From the IMG/VR virus record IMGVR_UViG_2602041905_000009: a stretch of 5,103 bases of DNA, one strand, 5' to 3'. Positions 1-5,103 of this stretch are shown piece by piece. How positions within the stretch are numbered: the stretch's first letter is position 1; every line of letters begins with the position of its first letter. A program made the translations under genes and the position numbers. The notes below the pieces were generated by a model. The model saw only the letters and a program-made list of their open reading frames with translations, ran no database searches and was not told the origin of the DNA. The DNA is from a virus. Its lineage: Duplodnaviria > Heunggongvirae > Uroviricota > Caudoviricetes.

Positions 1-1172
1 GCGCTGAAGCTGTAGCGGAACGGCGCGCCATCATCCGGCATCACCACATTACTGCGGTTATAGGTCCACACCTTATCCGACGGTCGGTCCTGCACGAATG
101 TCAGCGTCTGCCCGTTCCATACCGGCATACAGCGCATCGCCGAGCAAAAATCACTGAGCACATCCCACGCCTTGCGCTGTGTGGTCAGGTACGCATTACA
201 GGTGATGCGCGGCTCCGTGCCGCCAAAGCCGTCCGGCACTGACTGGTCGCAATTCTGGCCGATGACATACAGCGCCCATTTATCCACATCTGCCGCACCA
301 AGACGTTTCCCCATGCCGTAGCGCGGATGGGTCAGCATATCCCACAGACACCAGGCCATGTTGTTGCTGTATGCTGGCTTAAACGTTCCGTCCCAGATAC
401 CGCTGTATTGCCGCGTCTGCGGGTTATAGTTCGACGGCACCTGCAGAATGCGCCCGCGAAGATGATAATTACGGCTCACCTGCTGGCTGCCGAACTGTTC
501 CGAGTCCACCTGCACGCCGACCAGTGCCGTGTTCGGGTAGCACTGTTTCACATCGATGATTTCGGTGTATGACGACCAGAGCGTTTTGTTCTGCAGCTGG
601 TCTGTGGTGCTGTCCGGCGTCATTCTGCGCATCCGGATATTAAACGGGCGCGGCGGCAGGTTATCCACCACCACCGAGGCCAGATACTGCGAGGTGGTTT
701 TGCCCTTAATGGTGATGTCTTTTTCCGTCACCCAGCCACCGTTACGCTGGATCTGAACCAGCAGGCGGACTTCCGACGGATTCCTGTCCCCCTTTGAGGT
801 GGTTTCCACCAGTGCCTGCACACCGAAGGTAAAGCGCAGACGGTCGATGTTTGCCGACGTGATGGTCCGGGTGATCGGCGTGTCATATTTCACTTCCGTA
901 CCCAGCACCGTCCCGGAGCCGGAGGATTCAAATCCCTCCGGCGGTGTCTGCTCCTGCTCACCTGCCCGGAACACCACCGTGACACCGGATATATTGGTAT
1001 TCCCCTCACTGTCCAGCACCGGCGTACTGTTCAGCAGCACGCTTTTTAATCCGTCCACCGGACCTTCAACCGGCCCTTCGCTGATGGCATCGATCACACT
1101 CAGCAGCTGCGTGGACTTCAGGTTGTCCCTCGCTTCGCGCGGGGTATGCCCCTTACTGCTTCCTTTACCCAT
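1..1172 (-). CDS. J: Tail tip attachment protein J (central tail fibre / host specificity protein), N-terminal ~390 codons; 3' end runs off the window start. Copy A.
   Basis: Minus-strand ATG at 1172..1170 translates to MGKGSSKGHTPREARDNLKSTQLLSVIDAIS..., matching lambda gpJ N-terminus from recall. Frame stays open to position 1; hand translation of 59..3 gives NRSNVVMPDDGAPFRYSFSA, also gpJ-like. Absent from the ORF track only because no stop codon lies inside the window. Confidence 0.9.
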   Translation of the reverse strand, partial: MGKGSSKGHTPREARDNLKSTQLLSVIDAISEGPVEGPVDGLKSVLLNSTPVLDSEGNTNISGVTVVFRAGEQEQTPPEGFESSGSGTVLGTEVKYDTPITRTITSANIDRLRFTFGVQALVETTSKGDRNPSEVRLLVQIQRNGGWVTEKDITIKGKTTSQYLASVVVDNLPPRPFNIRMRRMTPDSTTDQLQNKTLWSSYTEIIDVKQCYPNTALVGVQVDSEQFGSQQVSRNYHLRGRILQVPSNYNPQTRQYSGIWDGTFKPAYSNNMAWCLWDMLTHPRYGMGKRLGAADVDKWALYVIGQNCDQSVPDGFGGTEPRITCNAYLTTQRKAWDVLSDFCSAMRCMPVWNGQTLTFVQDRPSDKVWTYNRSNVVMPDDGAPFRYSFS

Positions 1173-1214
1173 TCCTCACACTCCATAAACAACAAAGCCG
1201 CCCAAAAGGCGGCT
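499..1214. repeat. Direct repeat, copy A of the J 5' region plus upstream hairpin; pairs with 1657..2373 (copy B) at roughly 95% nucleotide identity (hand-estimated)
   Basis: Visual alignment of 499..1214 against 1657..2373: about 35 mismatches over about 700 nt, with a cluster of differences about 40..80 nt inside the J 5' end. The plus-strand antisense track ORFs 556..756 / 1715..1909 and 799..1188 / 1958..2347 are near-identical pairs, reflecting this repeat. Confidence 0.9.
1196..1214 (-). terminator. GC-rich stem-loop (7-bp stem agccgcc / ggcggct, 5-nt loop) followed on the minus strand by TTGTTGTTTAT; candidate intrinsic terminator for the upstream lipoprotein gene, located 22 nt upstream of J copy A start
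   Basis: Perfect inverted repeat read directly from the sequence; U-rich tract follows on the minus-strand transcript; a homologous hairpin sits at the same place upstream of J copy B (2354..2373). Confidence 0.5.
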
Positions 1215-1238
1215 CATGAGTTACGACAGGATTAACTA

Positions 1239-1577
1239 TTATTTACATGCATTAACACTATCAGCAAAAATTTTTGGCGTTAATGCTGGTACACGTTCAT
1301 AAAGAGTAAAACTACTGCCATTTCCTGCTTTTTTGATATCAAGCACAACATCATATCCCCCCATAGCCTGTGGAACTAAAAGGCTTACCCCATTCTCAAT
1401 AGGAAGGGATGTTATAGGTGTTCCATTACCAGCCCATTGTCTGGATATGCAGCCTGACAATTCATCAATATTTTTTAATGAATTACCTTCCATTACAGGT
1501 TTTCCGGATTTTACGTAATCCAAAGATTTACATCCTGTTAAGGCAATAATCGTGCAGAATAAAATCGTTTTGTTCAT
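1239..1577 (-). CDS. Small predicted lipoprotein (112 aa precursor), unknown family; AT-rich moron-like gene
   Basis: ORF with ATG at 1577..1575 and TAA stop at 1241..1239. N-terminus MNKTILFCTIIALTGC has a basic n-region, hydrophobic core and lipobox L-T-G-C (signal peptidase II type), with Cys16 as predicted lipidation site and Lys at +2. Two further Cys in the mature part (..SGCISRQ.. and C-terminal ..NACK). Strongly AT-rich compared with flanking tail genes. The track ORF 1239..1589 begins at an upstream TTG; the ATG at 1577 is the more likely start. Confidence 0.6.
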   Translation of the reverse strand: MNKTILFCTIIALTGCKSLDYVKSGKPVMEGNSLKNIDELSGCISRQWAGNGTPITSLPIENGVSLLVPQAMGGYDVVLDIKKAGNGSSFTLYERVPALTPKIFADSVNACK

Positions 1578-1646
1578 ATAGCTAACCAATAGAATAATTA
1601 TCAGTGTTCGATATAAATATTAAATTAGTTAGAACATGAGTAAAAT
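1578..1646 (-). promoter_or_regulatory. AT-rich upstream region of the lipoprotein gene with a candidate -10 element (GATAAT, minus strand, original coordinates 1597..1602); truncated by the assembly gap
   Basis: Sequence inspection only; -10-like hexamer about 19 nt upstream of the ATG, no convincing -35 and no strong Shine-Dalgarno. The region is cut off at the N run, so the true promoter may lie beyond it. Confidence 0.25.
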
Positions 1647-1656
1647 NNNNNNNNNN
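1647..1656. other. Assembly/scaffold gap (10 x N)
   Basis: Literal run of n characters in the sequence. Confidence 0.99.
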
Positions 1657-2331
1657 CTCCGAGTCCACCTGTACGCCGACCAGTGCCGTGTTCGGGTAGC
1701 ACTGTTTCACATCGATGATTTCGGTGTATGACGACCAGAGCGTTTTGTTCTGCAACTGGTCTGTGGTGCTGTCCGGCGTCATCCTGCGCATCCGGATATT
1801 AAACGGGCGCGGCGGCAGGTTATCCACCACCACCGAGGCCAGATACTGCGACGTGGTTTTGCCCTTAATGGTGATGTCTTTTTCCGTCACCCAGCCACCG
1901 TTACGTTGAATCTGAACCAGCAGGCGGACTTCCGATGGATTCCTGTCCCCCTTTGAGGTGGTTTCCACCAGTGCCTGCACGCCGAAAGTAAAACGCAGAC
2001 GGTCAATGTTTGCCGACGTGATGGTCCGGGTGATCGGCGTGTCATATTTCACTTCTGTACCGAGCACCGTCTCGGAGCCGGAGGATTCAAATCCCTCCGG
2101 CGGAGTCTGCTCCTGCTCACCGGCCCGGAACACCACCGTGACGCCGAATATATTGGTATTCCCCTCACTGTCCAGCACCGGCGTACTGTTCAGCAGCACG
2201 CTTTTTAATCCATCCACCGGACCTTCAACCGGCCCTTCGCTGATGGCGTCTATCACGCTCAGCATCTGGGATGATTTCAGGTTGTCCTTCGCTTCGCGCG
2301 GGGTATGCCCCTTACTGCTGCCTTTACCCAT
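1657..2331 (-). CDS. J: Tail tip attachment protein J, N-terminal 225 codons, copy B; interrupted by the assembly gap at its 3' side
   Basis: ATG at 2331..2329; translation MGKGSSKGHTPREAKDNLKSSQMLSVIDAISEGPVEGPVDGLKSVLLNSTPVLD... matches lambda gpJ from recall. The track ORF 1582..2331 is a read-through across the N run into unrelated AT-rich sequence and is not a real single gene. Confidence 0.9.
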
Positions 2332-2353
2332 TCCTCATGCTCCATAAACGATA

Positions 2354-2373
2354 AAACCGCCCGGAGGCGGTTT
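2354..2373 (-). terminator. Conserved stem-loop in the I-J intergenic region (8-bp stem aaaccgcc / ggcggttt, 4-nt loop); possible attenuator/terminator or mRNA-stabilising hairpin
   Basis: Perfect inverted repeat read from the sequence; on the minus-strand transcript it is followed by a U-rich stretch (UUUUAUCGUUUAU) and then the J Shine-Dalgarno (GGAG) and start codon. Confidence 0.45.
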
Positions 2374-2391
2374 CACATAAAACATTTTGCA

Positions 2392-3063
2392 TCAGCGACC
2401 AATCACCACAACCTGACCACCATCCCCTTCGTCTGCCGTGCTGATCTCCTGAGAAACCACGCGTGACCCCACGCGCATTTCACCGTACAGAACCGGCAGA
2501 ACATTGCCCTGGGCAACCATGTTATCCAGTGAGGAGAAATAGGTGTTCTGTTTGCCGTTATCCGTTGTCTGTGTACGGGGAGTTCTGGCTTTCGGTGCCA
2601 GCATCTGCGCCACACCACCGAGCACCATACTGGCACCGAGAGAAAACAGGATGCCGGTCATACCACCGGCCCCAATGGCTGCCCCCCATGCTGCAAGGGT
2701 GGCTCCGGCGGTAAAGAATGATCCGGCAATGGCGGCAGCCCCCAGGACAATCTGGAATACGCCACCTGACTTGGCCCCGGCGACTCTGGGAACAATATGA
2801 ATCACAGCGCCATCAGGCAGAGTCTCATGTAACTGCGCCGTTAACCCGGACGTGCTGACGTCCCGCCCGGCAATCCGTACCTGATACCAGCCGTCGCTCA
2901 GTTTCTGACGAAACACCGGGAGCTGTGTGGCCAGTGCGCGGATGGCTTCAGCCCCCGTTTTCACACGAAGGTCGATGCGGCGGCCAAATCGTTGTAAATC
3001 CCCGTAAAGGCAGATGCGCGCCATGCCCGGTGACGCCAGAGGGAGTGTGTGCGTCGCTGCCAT
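2392..3063 (-). CDS. I: Tail tip assembly protein I (223 aa)
   Basis: Complete ORF; translation MAATHTLPLASPGMARICLYGDLQRFGRRIDLRVKTG... ending ...GGQVVVIGR is essentially lambda gpI from recall. Its start lies inside the 3' end of K in another frame. Confidence 0.92.
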   Translation of the reverse strand: MAATHTLPLASPGMARICLYGDLQRFGRRIDLRVKTGAEAIRALATQLPVFRQKLSDGWYQVRIAGRDVSTSGLTAQLHETLPDGAVIHIVPRVAGAKSGGVFQIVLGAAAIAGSFFTAGATLAAWGAAIGAGGMTGILFSLGASMVLGGVAQMLAPKARTPRTQTTDNGKQNTYFSSLDNMVAQGNVLPVLYGEMRVGSRVVSQEISTADEGDGGQVVVIGR

Positions 3064-3704
3064 TTGTCGGTATACCTCTCTCGTTTACTCAGTTGTTCAG
3101 GAATATGGTGCAGCAGCTCGCCGTCACCACAGTAAATAGCGGCATGATTCGGCACCGATGAACCAAAGCAGCACAGCAGCACATCGCCCGGCTGCGCCGC
3201 TGACAACGGCACCTGATACAGCCCTGTGGCCTCCAGATTATCAAGATAGAGATTCTGGCCGTTACGCCACCAGTCATCCTCACGATGAAAGTCCGGCATC
3301 TCAATCCCCGCCAGATGGTAAGCGTCCCGGAACAGCGTGTAACAGTCCGTCACCCCGTGCTCAAAGCGCCGCCCGGTGAGATGCGGCACACAGCGGAACT
3401 TATGAATCGCCCCCCGGCAGACCAGCCACCACGGCAAATCACTCTGCACCTGCAGCCGCCGGTCGGCCTCACTCAGCCAGGGCAGACCACCGGGATGACT
3501 GTGGACCAGCGCCACAATCTCACCCTGCATCTCTGCCTGCAGCCAGTCCTCCGGAGCCATCCGGAAATACGCCTCCGGCTCACCGGAGATATTCACGCAG
3601 GGAAAATATCTTTCCCCCTCCGGCGCTCTCACCACGAAGCCGCACGACTCCGCTGGCGCACATCGCCGGGCATGCGCCAGAATCGCTGATTCTGTCTCTG
3701 TCAT
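2961..3704 (-). CDS. K: Tail tip assembly protein K (247 aa as longest ORF), with MPN/JAMM-like and NlpC/P60-like peptidase motifs
   Basis: Translation MTETESAILAHARRCAPAESCGFVV... matches lambda gpK from recall. It contains an H-x-H-x7-S-x2-D motif (HSHPGGLPWLSEAD) typical of JAMM/MPN metalloenzymes and a downstream Cys/His arrangement (..DCYTLFRDAY.. ..NHAAIY..) consistent with NlpC/P60. An internal ATG at 3560 would give a 199-aa product; the ATG at 3704, 5 nt after the L stop, is preferred because it includes the conserved N-terminal region. Confidence 0.88.
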   Translation of the reverse strand: MTETESAILAHARRCAPAESCGFVVRAPEGERYFPCVNISGEPEAYFRMAPEDWLQAEMQGEIVALVHSHPGGLPWLSEADRRLQVQSDLPWWLVCRGAIHKFRCVPHLTGRRFEHGVTDCYTLFRDAYHLAGIEMPDFHREDDWWRNGQNLYLDNLEATGLYQVPLSAAQPGDVLLCCFGSSVPNHAAIYCGDGELLHHIPEQLSKRERYTDKWQRRTHSLWRHRAWRASAFTGIYNDLAAASTFV

Positions 3705-3709
3705 GGGAT

Positions 3710-4408
3710 TTACTGCGAAAGTTTGTTAATGGAAAGGAAGCCGCCAAAGTTGCCGACGTTATTGCGAAACTTACAGCCGCTCAGGCATTTGCTGCATTTA
3801 TCCTTCGTGATATCGGAAGTCGGCTGATCATATTCATCCGCGACCGCCGGACCGTGATAACCGCACTCATCACCGCGATAGGTCCAGGTGCAGGTATTAG
3901 CCAGCATGATGCGCCCCGGAAAAACGGCACCATCCGTTTCCGTCGGTGTGGACAGTACAAAGGAGGCACTGACCGCACTCAGTTCGCTGCACTGCTCGAT
4001 GCGCCAGCGGCTGATCACCTCCTGCTCCGGATCGGCGTCGCTGTTTCCGTTGACGAAGTTCACCGCATCCAGAAAACGGGCGTAAACCTTACGCCTGACC
4101 ACCGTTCCGCCGACCAGACTCTGCAGATCTTCCACCATCCCGGTGACCATACCGTACAGGTTAGAAACCGTCAGCGTGGGGCGCGTACTGGTGCCTTTGC
4201 CATTCAGTTCAAAACTACTCCCCTGAATGGGATACGGCTGATACTGTCGCCCCTGCCAGGTGACCGGCTCACCTTTTTCGTTCTGCTCATTACAGAAAAA
4301 ATAACGTTCTCCACCGACCTCTGTCAGATCGATTTCCCAGAGCACCACGCTGGCCGACTGCTCCGCACGGGTGCATTCATTCAATGTTTCCTGCCGGATA
4401 TCCTGCAT
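3710..4408 (-). CDS. L: Tail tip protein L (232 aa)
   Basis: Complete ORF; translation MQDIRQETLNECTRAEQSASVVLWEIDLTEVGGERYFFCNEQNEKGEPVTWQGRQYQPYPIQ... matches lambda gpL from recall. Its start codon overlaps the M stop (TGATG on the minus strand). Confidence 0.92.
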   Translation of the reverse strand: MQDIRQETLNECTRAEQSASVVLWEIDLTEVGGERYFFCNEQNEKGEPVTWQGRQYQPYPIQGSSFELNGKGTSTRPTLTVSNLYGMVTGMVEDLQSLVGGTVVRRKVYARFLDAVNFVNGNSDADPEQEVISRWRIEQCSELSAVSASFVLSTPTETDGAVFPGRIMLANTCTWTYRGDECGYHGPAVADEYDQPTSDITKDKCSKCLSGCKFRNNVGNFGGFLSINKLSQ

Positions 4409-4737
4409 CAGTTCACCACCTGTTCAAACTCTGCGCTGAACTCAACACGCAGCATACTGACCCGCGACGACCATTTTGCGCAGGTCACCTTTATCTGCCT
4501 GTAACCATAAGGCGGCGTCCACAGAAAGGCCTTCCAGCCCCCGTGCTCAGCCAGAAACGACTCCAGCGCCGTGGCCTCCTCACGGGAGACAGACAGCGTC
4601 ACGCTGTACGTTTTCAGGTCAGCGTTCAGCCCGGCAGGCGCACGCTGGGAATAGCCATCACCAAAGCGCACCTCCCTGACGGAAGGAGCCGATGTCACAT
4701 CCATCCCGGGTTTCACTTTCCAGCGGAAGGTTTTCAT
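4408..4737 (-). CDS. M: Tail tip protein M (109 aa)
   Basis: Complete ORF; translation MKTFRWKVKPGMDVTSAPSVREVRFGDGYSQRAPAGLNADLKTYSVTLSVSREEATALESF... matches lambda gpM from recall. ATGA overlap with the stop codon of H. Confidence 0.92.
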   Translation of the reverse strand: MKTFRWKVKPGMDVTSAPSVREVRFGDGYSQRAPAGLNADLKTYSVTLSVSREEATALESFLAEHGGWKAFLWTPPYGYRQIKVTCAKWSSRVSMLRVEFSAEFEQVVN

Positions 4738-5103
4738 CGTCCACCTCCGGAGAACAGACCACTATCGCGCATCTGTGCCTGGATTTCATCACGGGCACCC
4801 TTGCGGGCCATGTCATACACCGCCTTCATCATCTGTGGACCTGGCAGACCATTCGTACCGTCGTTCTGAATCACCACGTTGTTGTTCTGCTCAAACCTGA
4901 TACCCTCTGAACGCCGCATTTGCGCCGGACTTCCGGTGCCACCGACATAACCGCCGGTGGCATAGCCGCGCATCAGCCGGTAGAGATTTCCCACGCCAAT
5001 CCGGCTGGTTGCCTCCTTCGTGAAGACAAATTCACCACGGTGAACAATCCCCGCTGGCTCATATTTGCCGCCGGTTCCCGTAAATCCTCCGGTTGCAAAA
5101 TGG
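4734..5103 (-). CDS. H: Tail tape measure protein H, C-terminal ~122 codons (5' end outside the window)
   Basis: Frame is open from the window edge to the TGA at 4736..4734. Hand translation of 5102..4995 gives HFATGGFTGTGGKYEPAGIVHRGEFVFTKEATSRIG, continuous with the track ORF (V)GNLYRLMRGYATGGYVGGTGSPAQMRRSEGIRFEQNNNVVIQNDG..., the lambda gpH C-terminus from recall. The start at 4994 in the track is an internal GTG, not the real start. Confidence 0.9.
   Translation of the reverse strand, partial: HFATGGFTGTGGKYEPAGIVHRGEFVFTKEATSRIGVGNLYRLMRGYATGGYVGGTGSPAQMRRSEGIRFEQNNNVVIQNDGTNGLPGPQMMKAVYDMARKGARDEIQAQMRDSGLFSGGGR

What the first reader, a model, noticed from the sequence alone, without database searches (positions are those of the whole stretch)
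1239..1646. AT-rich moron encoding an unknown small lipoprotein sits where gene I should be, immediately upstream of a J copy
The tail-tip operon is normally a tight H-M-L-K-I-J block, and copy B shows I followed by a hairpin and J. In copy A the same hairpin and J are present, but upstream of the hairpin the sequence is a strongly AT-rich islet with its own promoter-like region. It encodes a 112-aa precursor with a textbook lipobox (LTGC) and two additional cysteines. Small phage-encoded lipoproteins placed next to receptor-binding or tail-tip genes are a recurring architecture for superinfection exclusion (T5 Llp and the Cor family, which block FhuA; established knowledge), and lambda Bor is a lipoprotein moron. 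I do not recognise this sequence as Bor, Cor, Llp or Rz1, so it may be an uncharacterised exclusion or host-fitness factor. The functional assignment is inference.
Basis: partly seen in the sequence, partly recalled or inferred. Interest (0 to 1): 0.75.

Follow-up and report, generated by a model that had tools for sequence, protein, structure and literature searches.

The report
Uncharacterised lipoprotein moron between tail genes
A small, AT-rich extra gene for a predicted outer-membrane lipoprotein of unknown function is inserted between tail genes I and J of a lambda-like E. coli prophage; it is real, conserved and mobile, belongs to an already catalogued but unstudied phage family, and does not replace gene I as first thought.

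Summary
The ORF is real: minus strand 1239-1577, 112 aa, lipobox LTG|C, GC 0.36 against about 0.58 in the flanks. It is under purifying selection. It does not sit "where gene I should be". The window is two assembly pieces joined by 10 N, and piece A stops 4 nt after the gene I stop codon. In UTI89 and 333 other complete E. coli genomes the order is I–lipoprotein–J.

The protein belongs to PHROG 914 (function unknown). It has no Pfam, PADLOC or PDB sequence match. A family member, phiKO2 gp19, is already annotated "putative moron gene product".

Relatives occupy three different slots of siphovirus tail operons: I–J, K–I and T–tape measure. They always point the same way as the tail genes and are followed by a terminator. 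No consensus σ70 promoter was found upstream.

The AlphaFold model (pLDDT 84) is a generic helix-grip domain. It is not related to Cor, Llp, Rtp45, mEp021 Lpp021, Bor or Rz1.

The same lipoprotein pairs with at least four J receptor-binding types, and phage Fraca carries both a family member and a separate Cor. Cor-like blocking of the phage's own receptor is therefore disfavoured. An envelope-level exclusion role remains the most likely function, but it is an inference. This is a new member of a known kind, of moderate interest.

The parts
1239..1577 (-). Lipoprotein gene (PHROG 914 family). The precursor is 112 aa with signal peptide residues 1-15, lipobox LTG|C16 and Lys at +2. The mature domain is 96 aa with conserved C43 and C111.
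   Evidence: ORF listing. phrog_914 E=7.3e-33 over the full length. 100% identical DNA in UTI89, annotated WP_001332187.1 hypothetical protein. Three invariant Cys in 50 members. dN/dS 0.06-0.5. AF2 pLDDT 83.7.
1578..1646 (-). AT-rich leader (GC 0.22) between the gene I stop and the lipoprotein start. Piece A ends here, 4 nt after the I stop codon as seen in UTI89.
   Evidence: No consensus σ70 promoter on the coding strand.
1647..1656 (.). Run of 10 N: a joint between two assembly pieces, not biological sequence.
   Evidence: Piece A is colinear with UTI89 up to 1646, and piece B restarts inside a second J copy.
1196..1216 (-). Terminator-like hairpin GAGCCGCCttttGGGCGGCTT followed by a T-rich tract, just upstream of J. 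It belongs to the I-J backbone and is shared with copy B at about 2344-2363.
   Evidence: The phiKO2 record annotates a putative terminator between I and J, and another after gp19.
1..1172 (-). 5' part of tail-tip gene J, copy A (start codon at 1172).
   Evidence: Pfam FNIII-A_GpJ E=9e-42 and Phage-tail_3. UTI89 annotation gpJ.
1215..1641 (-). Extent of the roughly 420-bp insertion relative to the moron-less copy B, bracketed by a 7-bp direct repeat ACTCATG (1215-1221 and 1635-1641, read on the minus strand).
   Evidence: Alignment of filled against empty junction. The predicted exact empty site was not found in viral contigs, so the repeat's meaning is unconfirmed.
1657..2331 (-). 5' part of J, copy B (second prophage), preceded directly by gene I with no moron. 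It serves as the 'empty site' comparator.
   Evidence: Pfam FNIII-A_GpJ E=3.6e-43. 95.2% identical to copy A over 705 bp.
2392..3063 (-). Gene I (tail assembly protein I), copy B.
   Evidence: Pfam Lambda_tail_I E=9.7e-29.
2961..4737 (-). Genes K (2961-3704), L (3710-4408) and M (4408-4737), copy B.
   Evidence: Pfam Prok-JAB + NLPC_P60, Phage_tail_L and Phage_min_tail.

Best explanation
Identity (confidence about 0.9). The finding is a roughly 420-bp AT-rich single-gene cassette, a classic phage 'moron'. It is inserted between the stop codon of tail gene I and the hairpin that precedes tail-tip gene J, in a lambda-like E. coli prophage. That prophage is the one next to trp/ompW in UTI89-type strains. 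The cassette encodes a 112-aa prolipoprotein of the uncharacterised phage family PHROG 914.

Predicted processing (inferred). Lgt and Lsp process it at LTG|C. [quoted passage not shown] There, a 96-residue helix-grip domain faces the periplasm. This domain is probably stapled by a C43-C111 disulfide.

Expression (inferred). The gene points the same way as the tail operon and is followed by a terminator. It is therefore at least co-transcribed with late genes. Whether it also has its own lysogenic promoter is not shown.

Function (inferred, about 0.35). It most likely modifies the cell envelope to hinder other phages, or to hinder re-adsorption of progeny. It would do this by binding a periplasm-facing outer-membrane component or an incoming tail-tip or tape-measure part. 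Unlike Cor and Llp, it would not be a blocker matched to the phage's own J receptor.
For: - The order I-Lpp-J is found at 100% identity in complete genomes (334 of 5426 E. coli genomes) and in 59 viral contigs with mosaic backbones.
- The insertion is defined against moron-less copy B.
- GC is 0.36 against 0.58, and low GC holds across the family whatever the host.
- PHROG 914 match: E=7e-33, and 50 of 50 diverse members match.
- About 125 clusters at 50% identity, nearly all about 112 aa, with the lipobox Cys and two further Cys invariant.
- Purifying selection.
- Confident fold: pLDDT 83.7.
- The same family occupies three tail-operon slots: I-J, K-I and T-H.
- Terminators follow the gene in each slot.
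- phiKO2 gp19 is annotated 'putative moron gene product'.
- Precedent: lipoprotein genes inside or next to tail modules have been shown experimentally to cause superinfection exclusion (PMC11893012, PMC12685063, PMC9586334).
Against: - No experiment or expression data exist for any member.
- No consensus σ70 promoter lies upstream in any slot. Lysogenic expression, part of the strict moron definition, is therefore unproven.
- There is no homology to any proven exclusion lipoprotein beyond the signal peptide.
- The mature domain (96 aa) is larger than those of Cor or Lpp021 (about 55-60 aa by my count) or Rtp45 (~6 kDa, PMC12685063).
- The disulfide and outer-membrane sorting are inferred, not measured.
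Confidence: 0.55

Rival explanations
1. Host-fitness or virulence moron of the Bor/Iss or Lom type. Under this reading the lipoprotein is expressed from the prophage and benefits the bacterium in its animal host, for example through serum resistance, envelope robustness or adhesion. It would not act against phages.
For: The exact allele is common in extraintestinal pathogenic strains (UTI89, S88, APEC O1, IHE3034, NU14) and in O104:H4 outbreak strains. It lies in the same tail-end accessory region as an Ail/Lom-family gene. The nearest structural match is Flpp3, a lipoprotein whose PDB entry is titled 'F. tularensis Virulence Determinant'.
Against: The family also occurs in free phages from non-clinical sources, such as LMessi from rotten tomato. 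It occurs in Klebsiella, Enterobacter, Kluyvera, Yersinia and Shimwellia prophages, and in many metagenome-only clusters. No promoter for lysogenic expression was detected. There is no sequence relationship to Bor/Iss (no Pfam hit). The Flpp3 similarity is at fold level only (6-9% identity).
Confidence: 0.2
2. Cor/Llp/Rtp45-type exclusion. Under this reading the lipoprotein binds the periplasmic face of the very receptor used by the adjacent J protein and blocks adsorption by the same phage and its relatives.
For: It is a predicted outer-membrane lipoprotein encoded directly upstream of J in E. coli. There is strong precedent for this architecture (PMC9586334, PMC12685063, PMC11893012).
Against: - An identical or 1-aa-variant lipoprotein is linked to at least four J C-terminal types, which are 51-69% identical or unrelated over the last 200 aa.
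- In other genera the family lies between K and I, or upstream of the tape-measure gene, not next to J.
- Phage Fraca encodes both a family member and a separate annotated Cor downstream of J.
- Homology to Cor and Lpp021 is limited to the signal peptide.
Confidence: 0.12
3. A late-expressed accessory with a lytic-cycle role only. It would act at the envelope at the time of lysis, for example by masking receptors on debris, and would have no role in the lysogen.
For: It is co-oriented with the tail operon. The spacer after K in Klebsiella and phiKO2 is only 32-36 nt, which leaves little room for a separate promoter. No σ70 consensus was detected.
Against: AT-rich leaders of about 70-85 nt precede the gene in the I-J and T-H slots, and these could hold non-consensus promoters. 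The terminator directly after the gene matches the moron transcription-unit pattern. This rival overlaps mechanistically with the best explanation.
Confidence: 0.1
4. Spurious ORF or decaying remnant with no function.
For: Three of 59 E. coli-type loci carry frameshifted or truncated alleles. The Shine-Dalgarno sequence in the E. coli allele is weak.
Against: pN is far below pS across orthologues at about 50% identity. Length, lipobox and two Cys are conserved across about 125 clusters. The fold prediction is confident.
Confidence: 0.02

Closest known systems
PHROG 914 / phiKO2 gp19 ('putative moron gene product; similar to Xanthomonas XCC2962')
   Same: Same protein family: phrog_914 E=7e-33 over the full length, and 26% identity to gp19 at BLASTP E=1e-7. 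Same length, lipobox and cysteine pattern. Same kind of placement inside the M-L-K-I-J block, followed by a terminator.
   Different: The slot differs (K-I in phiKO2, I-J here) and the sequences are divergent. Neither has a known function.
Cor (phi80/N15/HK022/T1), T5 Llp, Rtp45 and mEp021 Lpp021: small phage superinfection-exclusion lipoproteins
   Same: Phage-encoded predicted outer-membrane lipoproteins found in or beside the tail/receptor-binding module. It could plausibly work the same way, by acting from the periplasmic face of the outer membrane.
   Different: No sequence homology beyond the signal peptide. No PDB sequence or fold match to solved Llp or Rtp45 complexes. The mature domain is 96 aa, against about 55-60 aa for Cor and Lpp021 (my count) and ~6 kDa for Rtp45 (PMC12685063). 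It is not coupled to one J receptor-binding type. It coexists with Cor in phage Fraca.
HK97 gp15 moron (superinfection exclusion; the comparison rests on my own knowledge of Cumby et al. 2012 and Juhala et al. 2000)
   Same: A single-gene moron inside a siphovirus tail operon. Enterobacter relatives of this lipoprotein occupy what I recall to be the same slot as gp15, between the T chaperone gene and the tape-measure gene.
   Different: gp15 is, from memory, a small inner-membrane protein and not a lipoprotein. No sequence comparison was run here.
Lambda Bor / Iss and Lom (prophage-expressed envelope morons)
   Same: Envelope proteins carried as accessory genes of lambdoid prophages. A Lom-family gene lies just downstream of J in the same prophage.
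   Different: No Pfam match to any family, Bor included, at E<=1. Different location: Bor lies by the lysis genes (my own knowledge).
Francisella Flpp3 (DUF3568) and the BamC N-terminal domain: helix-grip lipoprotein domains
   Different: Only 6-13% identity. No Pfam DUF3568 hit. The fold is very common (TBP-like, Bet v 1-like, KA1, DUF302), so it says little about function.

Membership tests
PHROG 914 (unknown function) | Significant full-length match to the family HMM | tested here: met
   E=7.3e-33, residues 1-112 against profile 1-118 of 118. All 50 diverse relatives also match.
Phage moron (sense of Juhala et al. 2000; definition from my own knowledge) | Extra gene between two genes that are adjacent in related phages | tested here: met
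   Copy B in the same window has I followed directly by the hairpin and J. Copy A has a roughly 420-bp insert at that point. Relatives are in other slots.
Phage moron | Base composition distinct from the flanks | tested here: met
   GC 0.363 (ORF) and 0.217 (leader) against 0.57-0.58. The family-wide range is 0.36-0.42.
Phage moron | Terminator directly downstream | tested here: met
   Hairpin plus T-tract after the gene here, in Klebsiella L004 at 6366-6385, in Enterobacter L008 at about 6361-6385, and annotated in phiKO2. Caveat: in E. coli the hairpin is also present in the moron-less copy B, so it belongs to the backbone.
Phage moron | Own promoter giving expression from the repressed prophage | tested here: inconclusive
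   No σ70 consensus site (at least 9 of 12) on the coding strand upstream in any of the three slot types. The scan is crude and no expression data were available.
Bacterial lipoprotein (Lgt/Lsp substrate) | N-terminal basic and hydrophobic signal peptide ending in a lipobox [LVI][ASTVI][GAS]C | tested here: met
   MNKTILFCTIIA-LTG-C. The lipobox Cys is invariant in 50 members. No Asp at +2 in the 41 members read, which implies outer-membrane sorting by the E. coli Lol rule (established knowledge).
Bacterial lipoprotein | Actual acylation and membrane location | not testable with these tools
   Needs globomycin or palmitate labelling and cell fractionation.
Cor superinfection-exclusion family (phrog_1119) | Homology of the mature domain | tested here: not met
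   hhalign of the 50-sequence profile against Fraca Cor aligns only 30 columns, covering the signal peptide and lipobox. Only 2 of 50 members touch phrog_1119, at E about 5e-4.
Cor / Llp / Rtp45 / Lpp021 type exclusion lipoproteins | Genetic coupling to the phage's receptor-binding protein | tested here: not met
   The same lipoprotein occurs with at least four J C-terminal types. Relatives are in K-I and T-H slots. Fraca has a separate Cor.
T5 Llp and Rtp45 (solved structures) | Sequence or fold similarity to the solved proteins | tested here: not met
mEp021 Lpp021 (experimentally shown exclusion lipoprotein, PMC11893012) | Sequence homology | tested here: not met
   hhalign aligns only 20 signal-peptide columns at probability 50%. 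Lpp021 is 72 aa, downstream of J and on the opposite strand.
Lambda Bor/Iss; Rz1 o-spanin | Match to the Pfam family models | tested here: not met
   No Pfam family at E<=1 for the window protein, and none relevant among 50 relatives. The gene is in the tail operon, not the lysis cassette.
DUF3568 / Flpp3 | Sequence family membership as well as the fold | tested here: not met
Superinfection exclusion (as a function) | Reduced plating, adsorption or DNA entry of challenging phages when the gene is expressed | not testable with these tools
   No experimental data were found for any family member.

The most novel reading that the evidence does not exclude
PHROG 914 could be a new, structurally distinct class of phage-encoded outer-membrane lipoprotein, with a roughly 10-kDa disulfide-stapled helix-grip domain. 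It would protect cells against other siphoviruses at a step that does not depend on the carrier phage's own receptor. For example, it might interfere in the periplasm with the tail tip, the tape-measure protein or the DNA conduit, or with a shared outer-membrane machine. That would explain why it hops between tail-operon slots, coexists with Cor, and is uncoupled from the J receptor-binding type.
Probability: 0.25. Interest if true: 0.65.

Novelty: new member of a known kind. Interest (0 to 1): 0.4.

Why it matters
If it is an exclusion or defence factor, this gene would affect phage susceptibility in roughly 6% of complete E. coli genomes. These include ExPEC lineages (UTI89, S88, APEC O1) and O104:H4, which is relevant to phage therapy and prophage ecology. 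It would also add a structurally new type to the small set of characterised phage envelope lipoproteins. The three-slot distribution is a clean natural example of a moron cassette moving between intergenic sites of a conserved operon. As things stand it is a well-defined, easily testable candidate, not a surprise: morons in tail operons and phage lipoproteins are both familiar, and the family is already catalogued (function unknown).

Tried and rejected
- Sequence libraries. Pfam, NCBIfam and PADLOC gave nothing informative. The only hit was a VirB7 match at E 0.08 over the signal peptide.
- PDB sequence searches with two profiles found nothing meaningful.
- Homology to Cor and to Lpp021 was rejected: only the signal peptide aligns.
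- 'Replaces gene I' was rejected.
- Target-site-duplication idea. A 7-bp repeat ACTCATG flanks the insert. The predicted empty-site junction TTTTACTCATGAGCCGCC has no exact match in the viral collection. The E. coli search with a chimeric empty-site query returned filled sites first. The idea is unconfirmed.
- Literature searches for WP_001332187, XCC2962 and phrog_914 returned nothing. The phiKO2 paper (PMC355964) is not held.
- Context look-ups for more distant members failed or found nothing: P0006, P0025 and P0036. The broad alignment was too divergent for the search for related loci.
- Cluster names for ten distant members were all 'hypothetical protein' or 'Lipoprotein'.

Full report
**What is in the window**

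The window is not continuous. Positions 1647-1656 are N, so two assembly pieces have been joined.

- Piece A (1-1646) carries, all on the minus strand:
  - the 5' 1172 nt of a lambda-type J gene (Pfam FNIII-A_GpJ, E=9e-42);
  - a hairpin with a T-rich tail;
  - an ORF at 1239-1577;
  - a 69-nt very AT-rich leader.
- Piece B (1657-5103) carries a second J 5' end, then I, K, L, M and the end of the tape-measure gene. Pfam supports all of these except the last fragment.
- The two J starts and their upstream hairpins are 95% identical over 705 bp.

**Checking the observation**

The ORF encodes 112 aa from its ATG: MNKTILFCTIIALTG|CKSLDYV…NACK. It has a basic and hydrophobic signal peptide, the lipobox LTGC, and two further cysteines in the mature part (C43 and C111). 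There is also one Cys inside the signal peptide.

GC content is 0.363 in the ORF and 0.217 in the leader, against 0.58 in J and 0.57 in piece B. These parts of the finding are confirmed.

The ORF is a real gene, for four reasons:
- Its DNA is 100% identical in complete genomes.
- A profile search of 1.8 billion representatives finds about 125 clusters, nearly all around 112 aa.
- In 50 diverse members the only invariant residues are the lipobox Cys and the two other Cys.
- Between orthologues of about 50% identity, synonymous sites are saturated (pS 0.64-0.86). Nonsynonymous change is much lower: pN is 0.09-0.34 within the group at 48% identity or more, and 0.42-0.48 against the more distant Yersinia member. 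dN/dS is 0.06-0.5 where it can be calculated.

**"Where gene I should be" is a contig-break artefact**

Piece A aligns with E. coli UTI89 without gaps at 99.2% over all 1646 bp. In UTI89 the annotated order is K – I (tail assembly protein, Pfam Lambda_tail_I) – hypothetical protein WP_001332187.1 (this ORF) – J – Lom-family – tail fibre. This prophage lies next to trp/ompW.

The UTI89 sequence shows that piece A stops 4 nt after the gene I stop codon. That is the point where the unique AT-rich DNA gives way to a gene that is repeated in the second prophage, a typical place for a short-read assembly to break.

The order I–Lpp–J holds in 334 of 5426 complete E. coli genomes. It also holds in all 59 E. 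coli-type viral contigs I mapped. The gene is an addition between I and J and does not replace I.

Aligning the filled junction with moron-less copy B places the roughly 420-bp insert between the I stop codon and the pre-J hairpin. The hairpin therefore belongs to the backbone. phiKO2 and a Klebsiella prophage also have a terminator between I and J.

**Family and distribution**

The protein matches PHROG 914 (function unknown) over its full length, E=7e-33. All 50 diverse relatives match it too. It has no Pfam, NCBIfam, PADLOC or PDB sequence match of any value.

Relatives lie in three different slots, always co-oriented with the tail genes:

| Slot | Where found |
|---|---|
| I–J | E. coli |
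| K–I | Klebsiella, Kluyvera, a Yersinia-type contig, phages Fraca, LMessi and phiKO2 |
| T–tape measure | Enterobacter; from memory, the slot of the HK97 gp15 moron |

In each slot an intrinsic-terminator-like hairpin follows the gene. The phiKO2 GenBank record calls its member, gp19, a [quoted passage not shown]. The kind of element and the family were therefore already recognised, but I found no functional study.

The consensus scan found no σ70 promoter on the coding strand upstream in any slot. In Klebsiella and phiKO2 only 32-36 nt separate K from the gene. Expression with the late operon is thus the safe inference, and independent lysogenic expression remains open.

**Structure**

With a 12-sequence alignment, AlphaFold2 gives pLDDT 83.7 and pTM 0.76. 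The model has an N-terminal helix, four to five β-strands and a C-terminal helix.

- KA1 domains;

All are at 6-13% identity. Foldseek against PDB also ranks Flpp3 first, but only at E 5e-3. This is a common helix-grip/TBP-like fold, and it does not assign a function.

C43 lies in the first long helix and C111 in the last. A stapling disulfide is plausible, but I could not measure the distance in the model.

**Testing the Cor/Llp analogy**

Four results bear on it.

1. Profile comparison with the annotated Cor of phage Fraca aligns only the signal peptide and lipobox. The same is true for mEp021 Lpp021, which was shown experimentally to exclude phages (PMC11893012).
2. The known exclusion lipoproteins are small. 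Cor and Lpp021 have mature parts of about 55-60 aa by my count, and Rtp45 is about 6 kDa. Those examined here (Fraca Cor and Lpp021) are encoded downstream of J (PMC9586334, PMC12685063). This protein's mature domain is 96 aa.
3. Among E. coli loci with intact J, an identical or 1-aa-variant lipoprotein is linked to at least four J C-terminal types. These are 51-69% identical to each other or unrelated over the last 200 aa.
4. Fraca encodes both a PHROG 914 member (K–I slot) and a separate Cor downstream of J.

Together these argue against a blocker matched to the phage's own receptor. They do not argue against an envelope-level anti-phage role in general.

**Most likely mechanism**

- Shown: a mobile, AT-rich, single-gene cassette in the tail operon encodes a conserved protein that has every sequence hallmark of a lipoprotein.
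- Inferred from established rules: Lgt/Lsp processing, and Lol transport to the outer membrane because residue +2 is not Asp.
- Inferred by analogy: it acts from the periplasmic side of the outer membrane to hinder infection by other phages, or loss of progeny on debris.

I put about 0.9 on the identity and anatomy and about 0.35 on the exclusion-type function. A Bor-like host-fitness role gets about 0.2, the strict Cor-like own-receptor model about 0.12, and a purely late lytic-cycle role about 0.1.

**Novelty and interest**

This is a new member (an E. coli allele in a new slot) of a catalogued but uncharacterised moron family, so it is not a new kind of system. Several features make it a good, cheap experimental target:
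- wide distribution;
- strict conservation of the Cys pattern;
- movement between three slots;
- independence from J type.

None of this would greatly surprise a phage specialist. Interest: 0.4.

Noticed in passing
window 1647-1656: A run of 10 N joins two assembly pieces. Piece B restarts inside a second J copy, at a position homologous to piece A position 499. Both breaks fall at the edges of DNA repeated between two lambdoid prophages, so adjacency across the gap is not real.
   Followed up: yes
window 1215-1221 and 1635-1641 (minus-strand reading ACTCATG): A 7-bp direct repeat brackets the roughly 420-bp insert. Copy B has a single related stretch there (TTTTATGTGAAACCGCC). This could be a target duplication or a microhomology scar. 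The predicted exact empty site was not found in viral contigs.
   Followed up: partly
window 1196-1216 and about 2344-2363; L004 7018-7037; L082 8007-8029: A terminator-like hairpin followed by TTTATGGAG…ATG lies between I and J in both window copies, in a Klebsiella prophage and in phiKO2. It looks like a conserved feature of the late operon just before J, and its role is not explained here.
   Followed up: partly
L083 2523-7000; L070 3051-6970: In a Yersinia-type contig and in another contig, the K-I gap is about 4-4.5 kb. It holds Arc/CopG-like and Bro-N/KilAC antirepressor-like ORFs and an HTH ORF. The lipoprotein gene follows, and is the last gene before I in L083. The K-I junction is a general cargo hotspot.
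   Followed up: partly
L070 7406-7855: A second, unrelated predicted lipoprotein (149 aa, MMKKLAIIGFAALVLSGCANQ…) lies between the PHROG 914 gene and gene I.
   Followed up: no
L002 8725-8994; L003 8647-8994: Phages Fraca and LMessi have another small unannotated ORF (90-115 aa) directly upstream of their PHROG 914 gene in the K-I slot.
   Followed up: no
L085 1959-2525 (mEp021): Phage mEp021 has a putative HNH endonuclease gene in the I-J slot. The I-J junction therefore accepts other insertions too.
   Followed up: no
L067, L068 and one further E. coli-type locus: Three of 59 E. coli-type loci carry frameshifted or truncated alleles of the lipoprotein gene, for example …QAMGDMMLCLISKK…. This shows occasional decay.
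   Followed up: no
L011-L069: The lipoprotein gene stays 99-100% identical. Meanwhile the upstream V/G/T/H modules range from 27% to 100% identity and J from 73% to 100%. Very different tail backbones thus share the same I-Lpp-J junction, which points to recent spread by recombination.
   Followed up: partly
L001 16127-16190 (UTI89): The annotated UTI89 gene I (191 aa) probably starts too late. An upstream in-frame ATG gives the same MAATHTLPLASPGMARI… N-terminus as the 223-aa copy B protein and overlaps K, as in the window.
   Followed up: no
H33-H47: The identical I-lipoprotein-J arrangement is present in O104:H4 2011-outbreak-lineage genomes as well as in B2 ExPEC strains.
   Followed up: no
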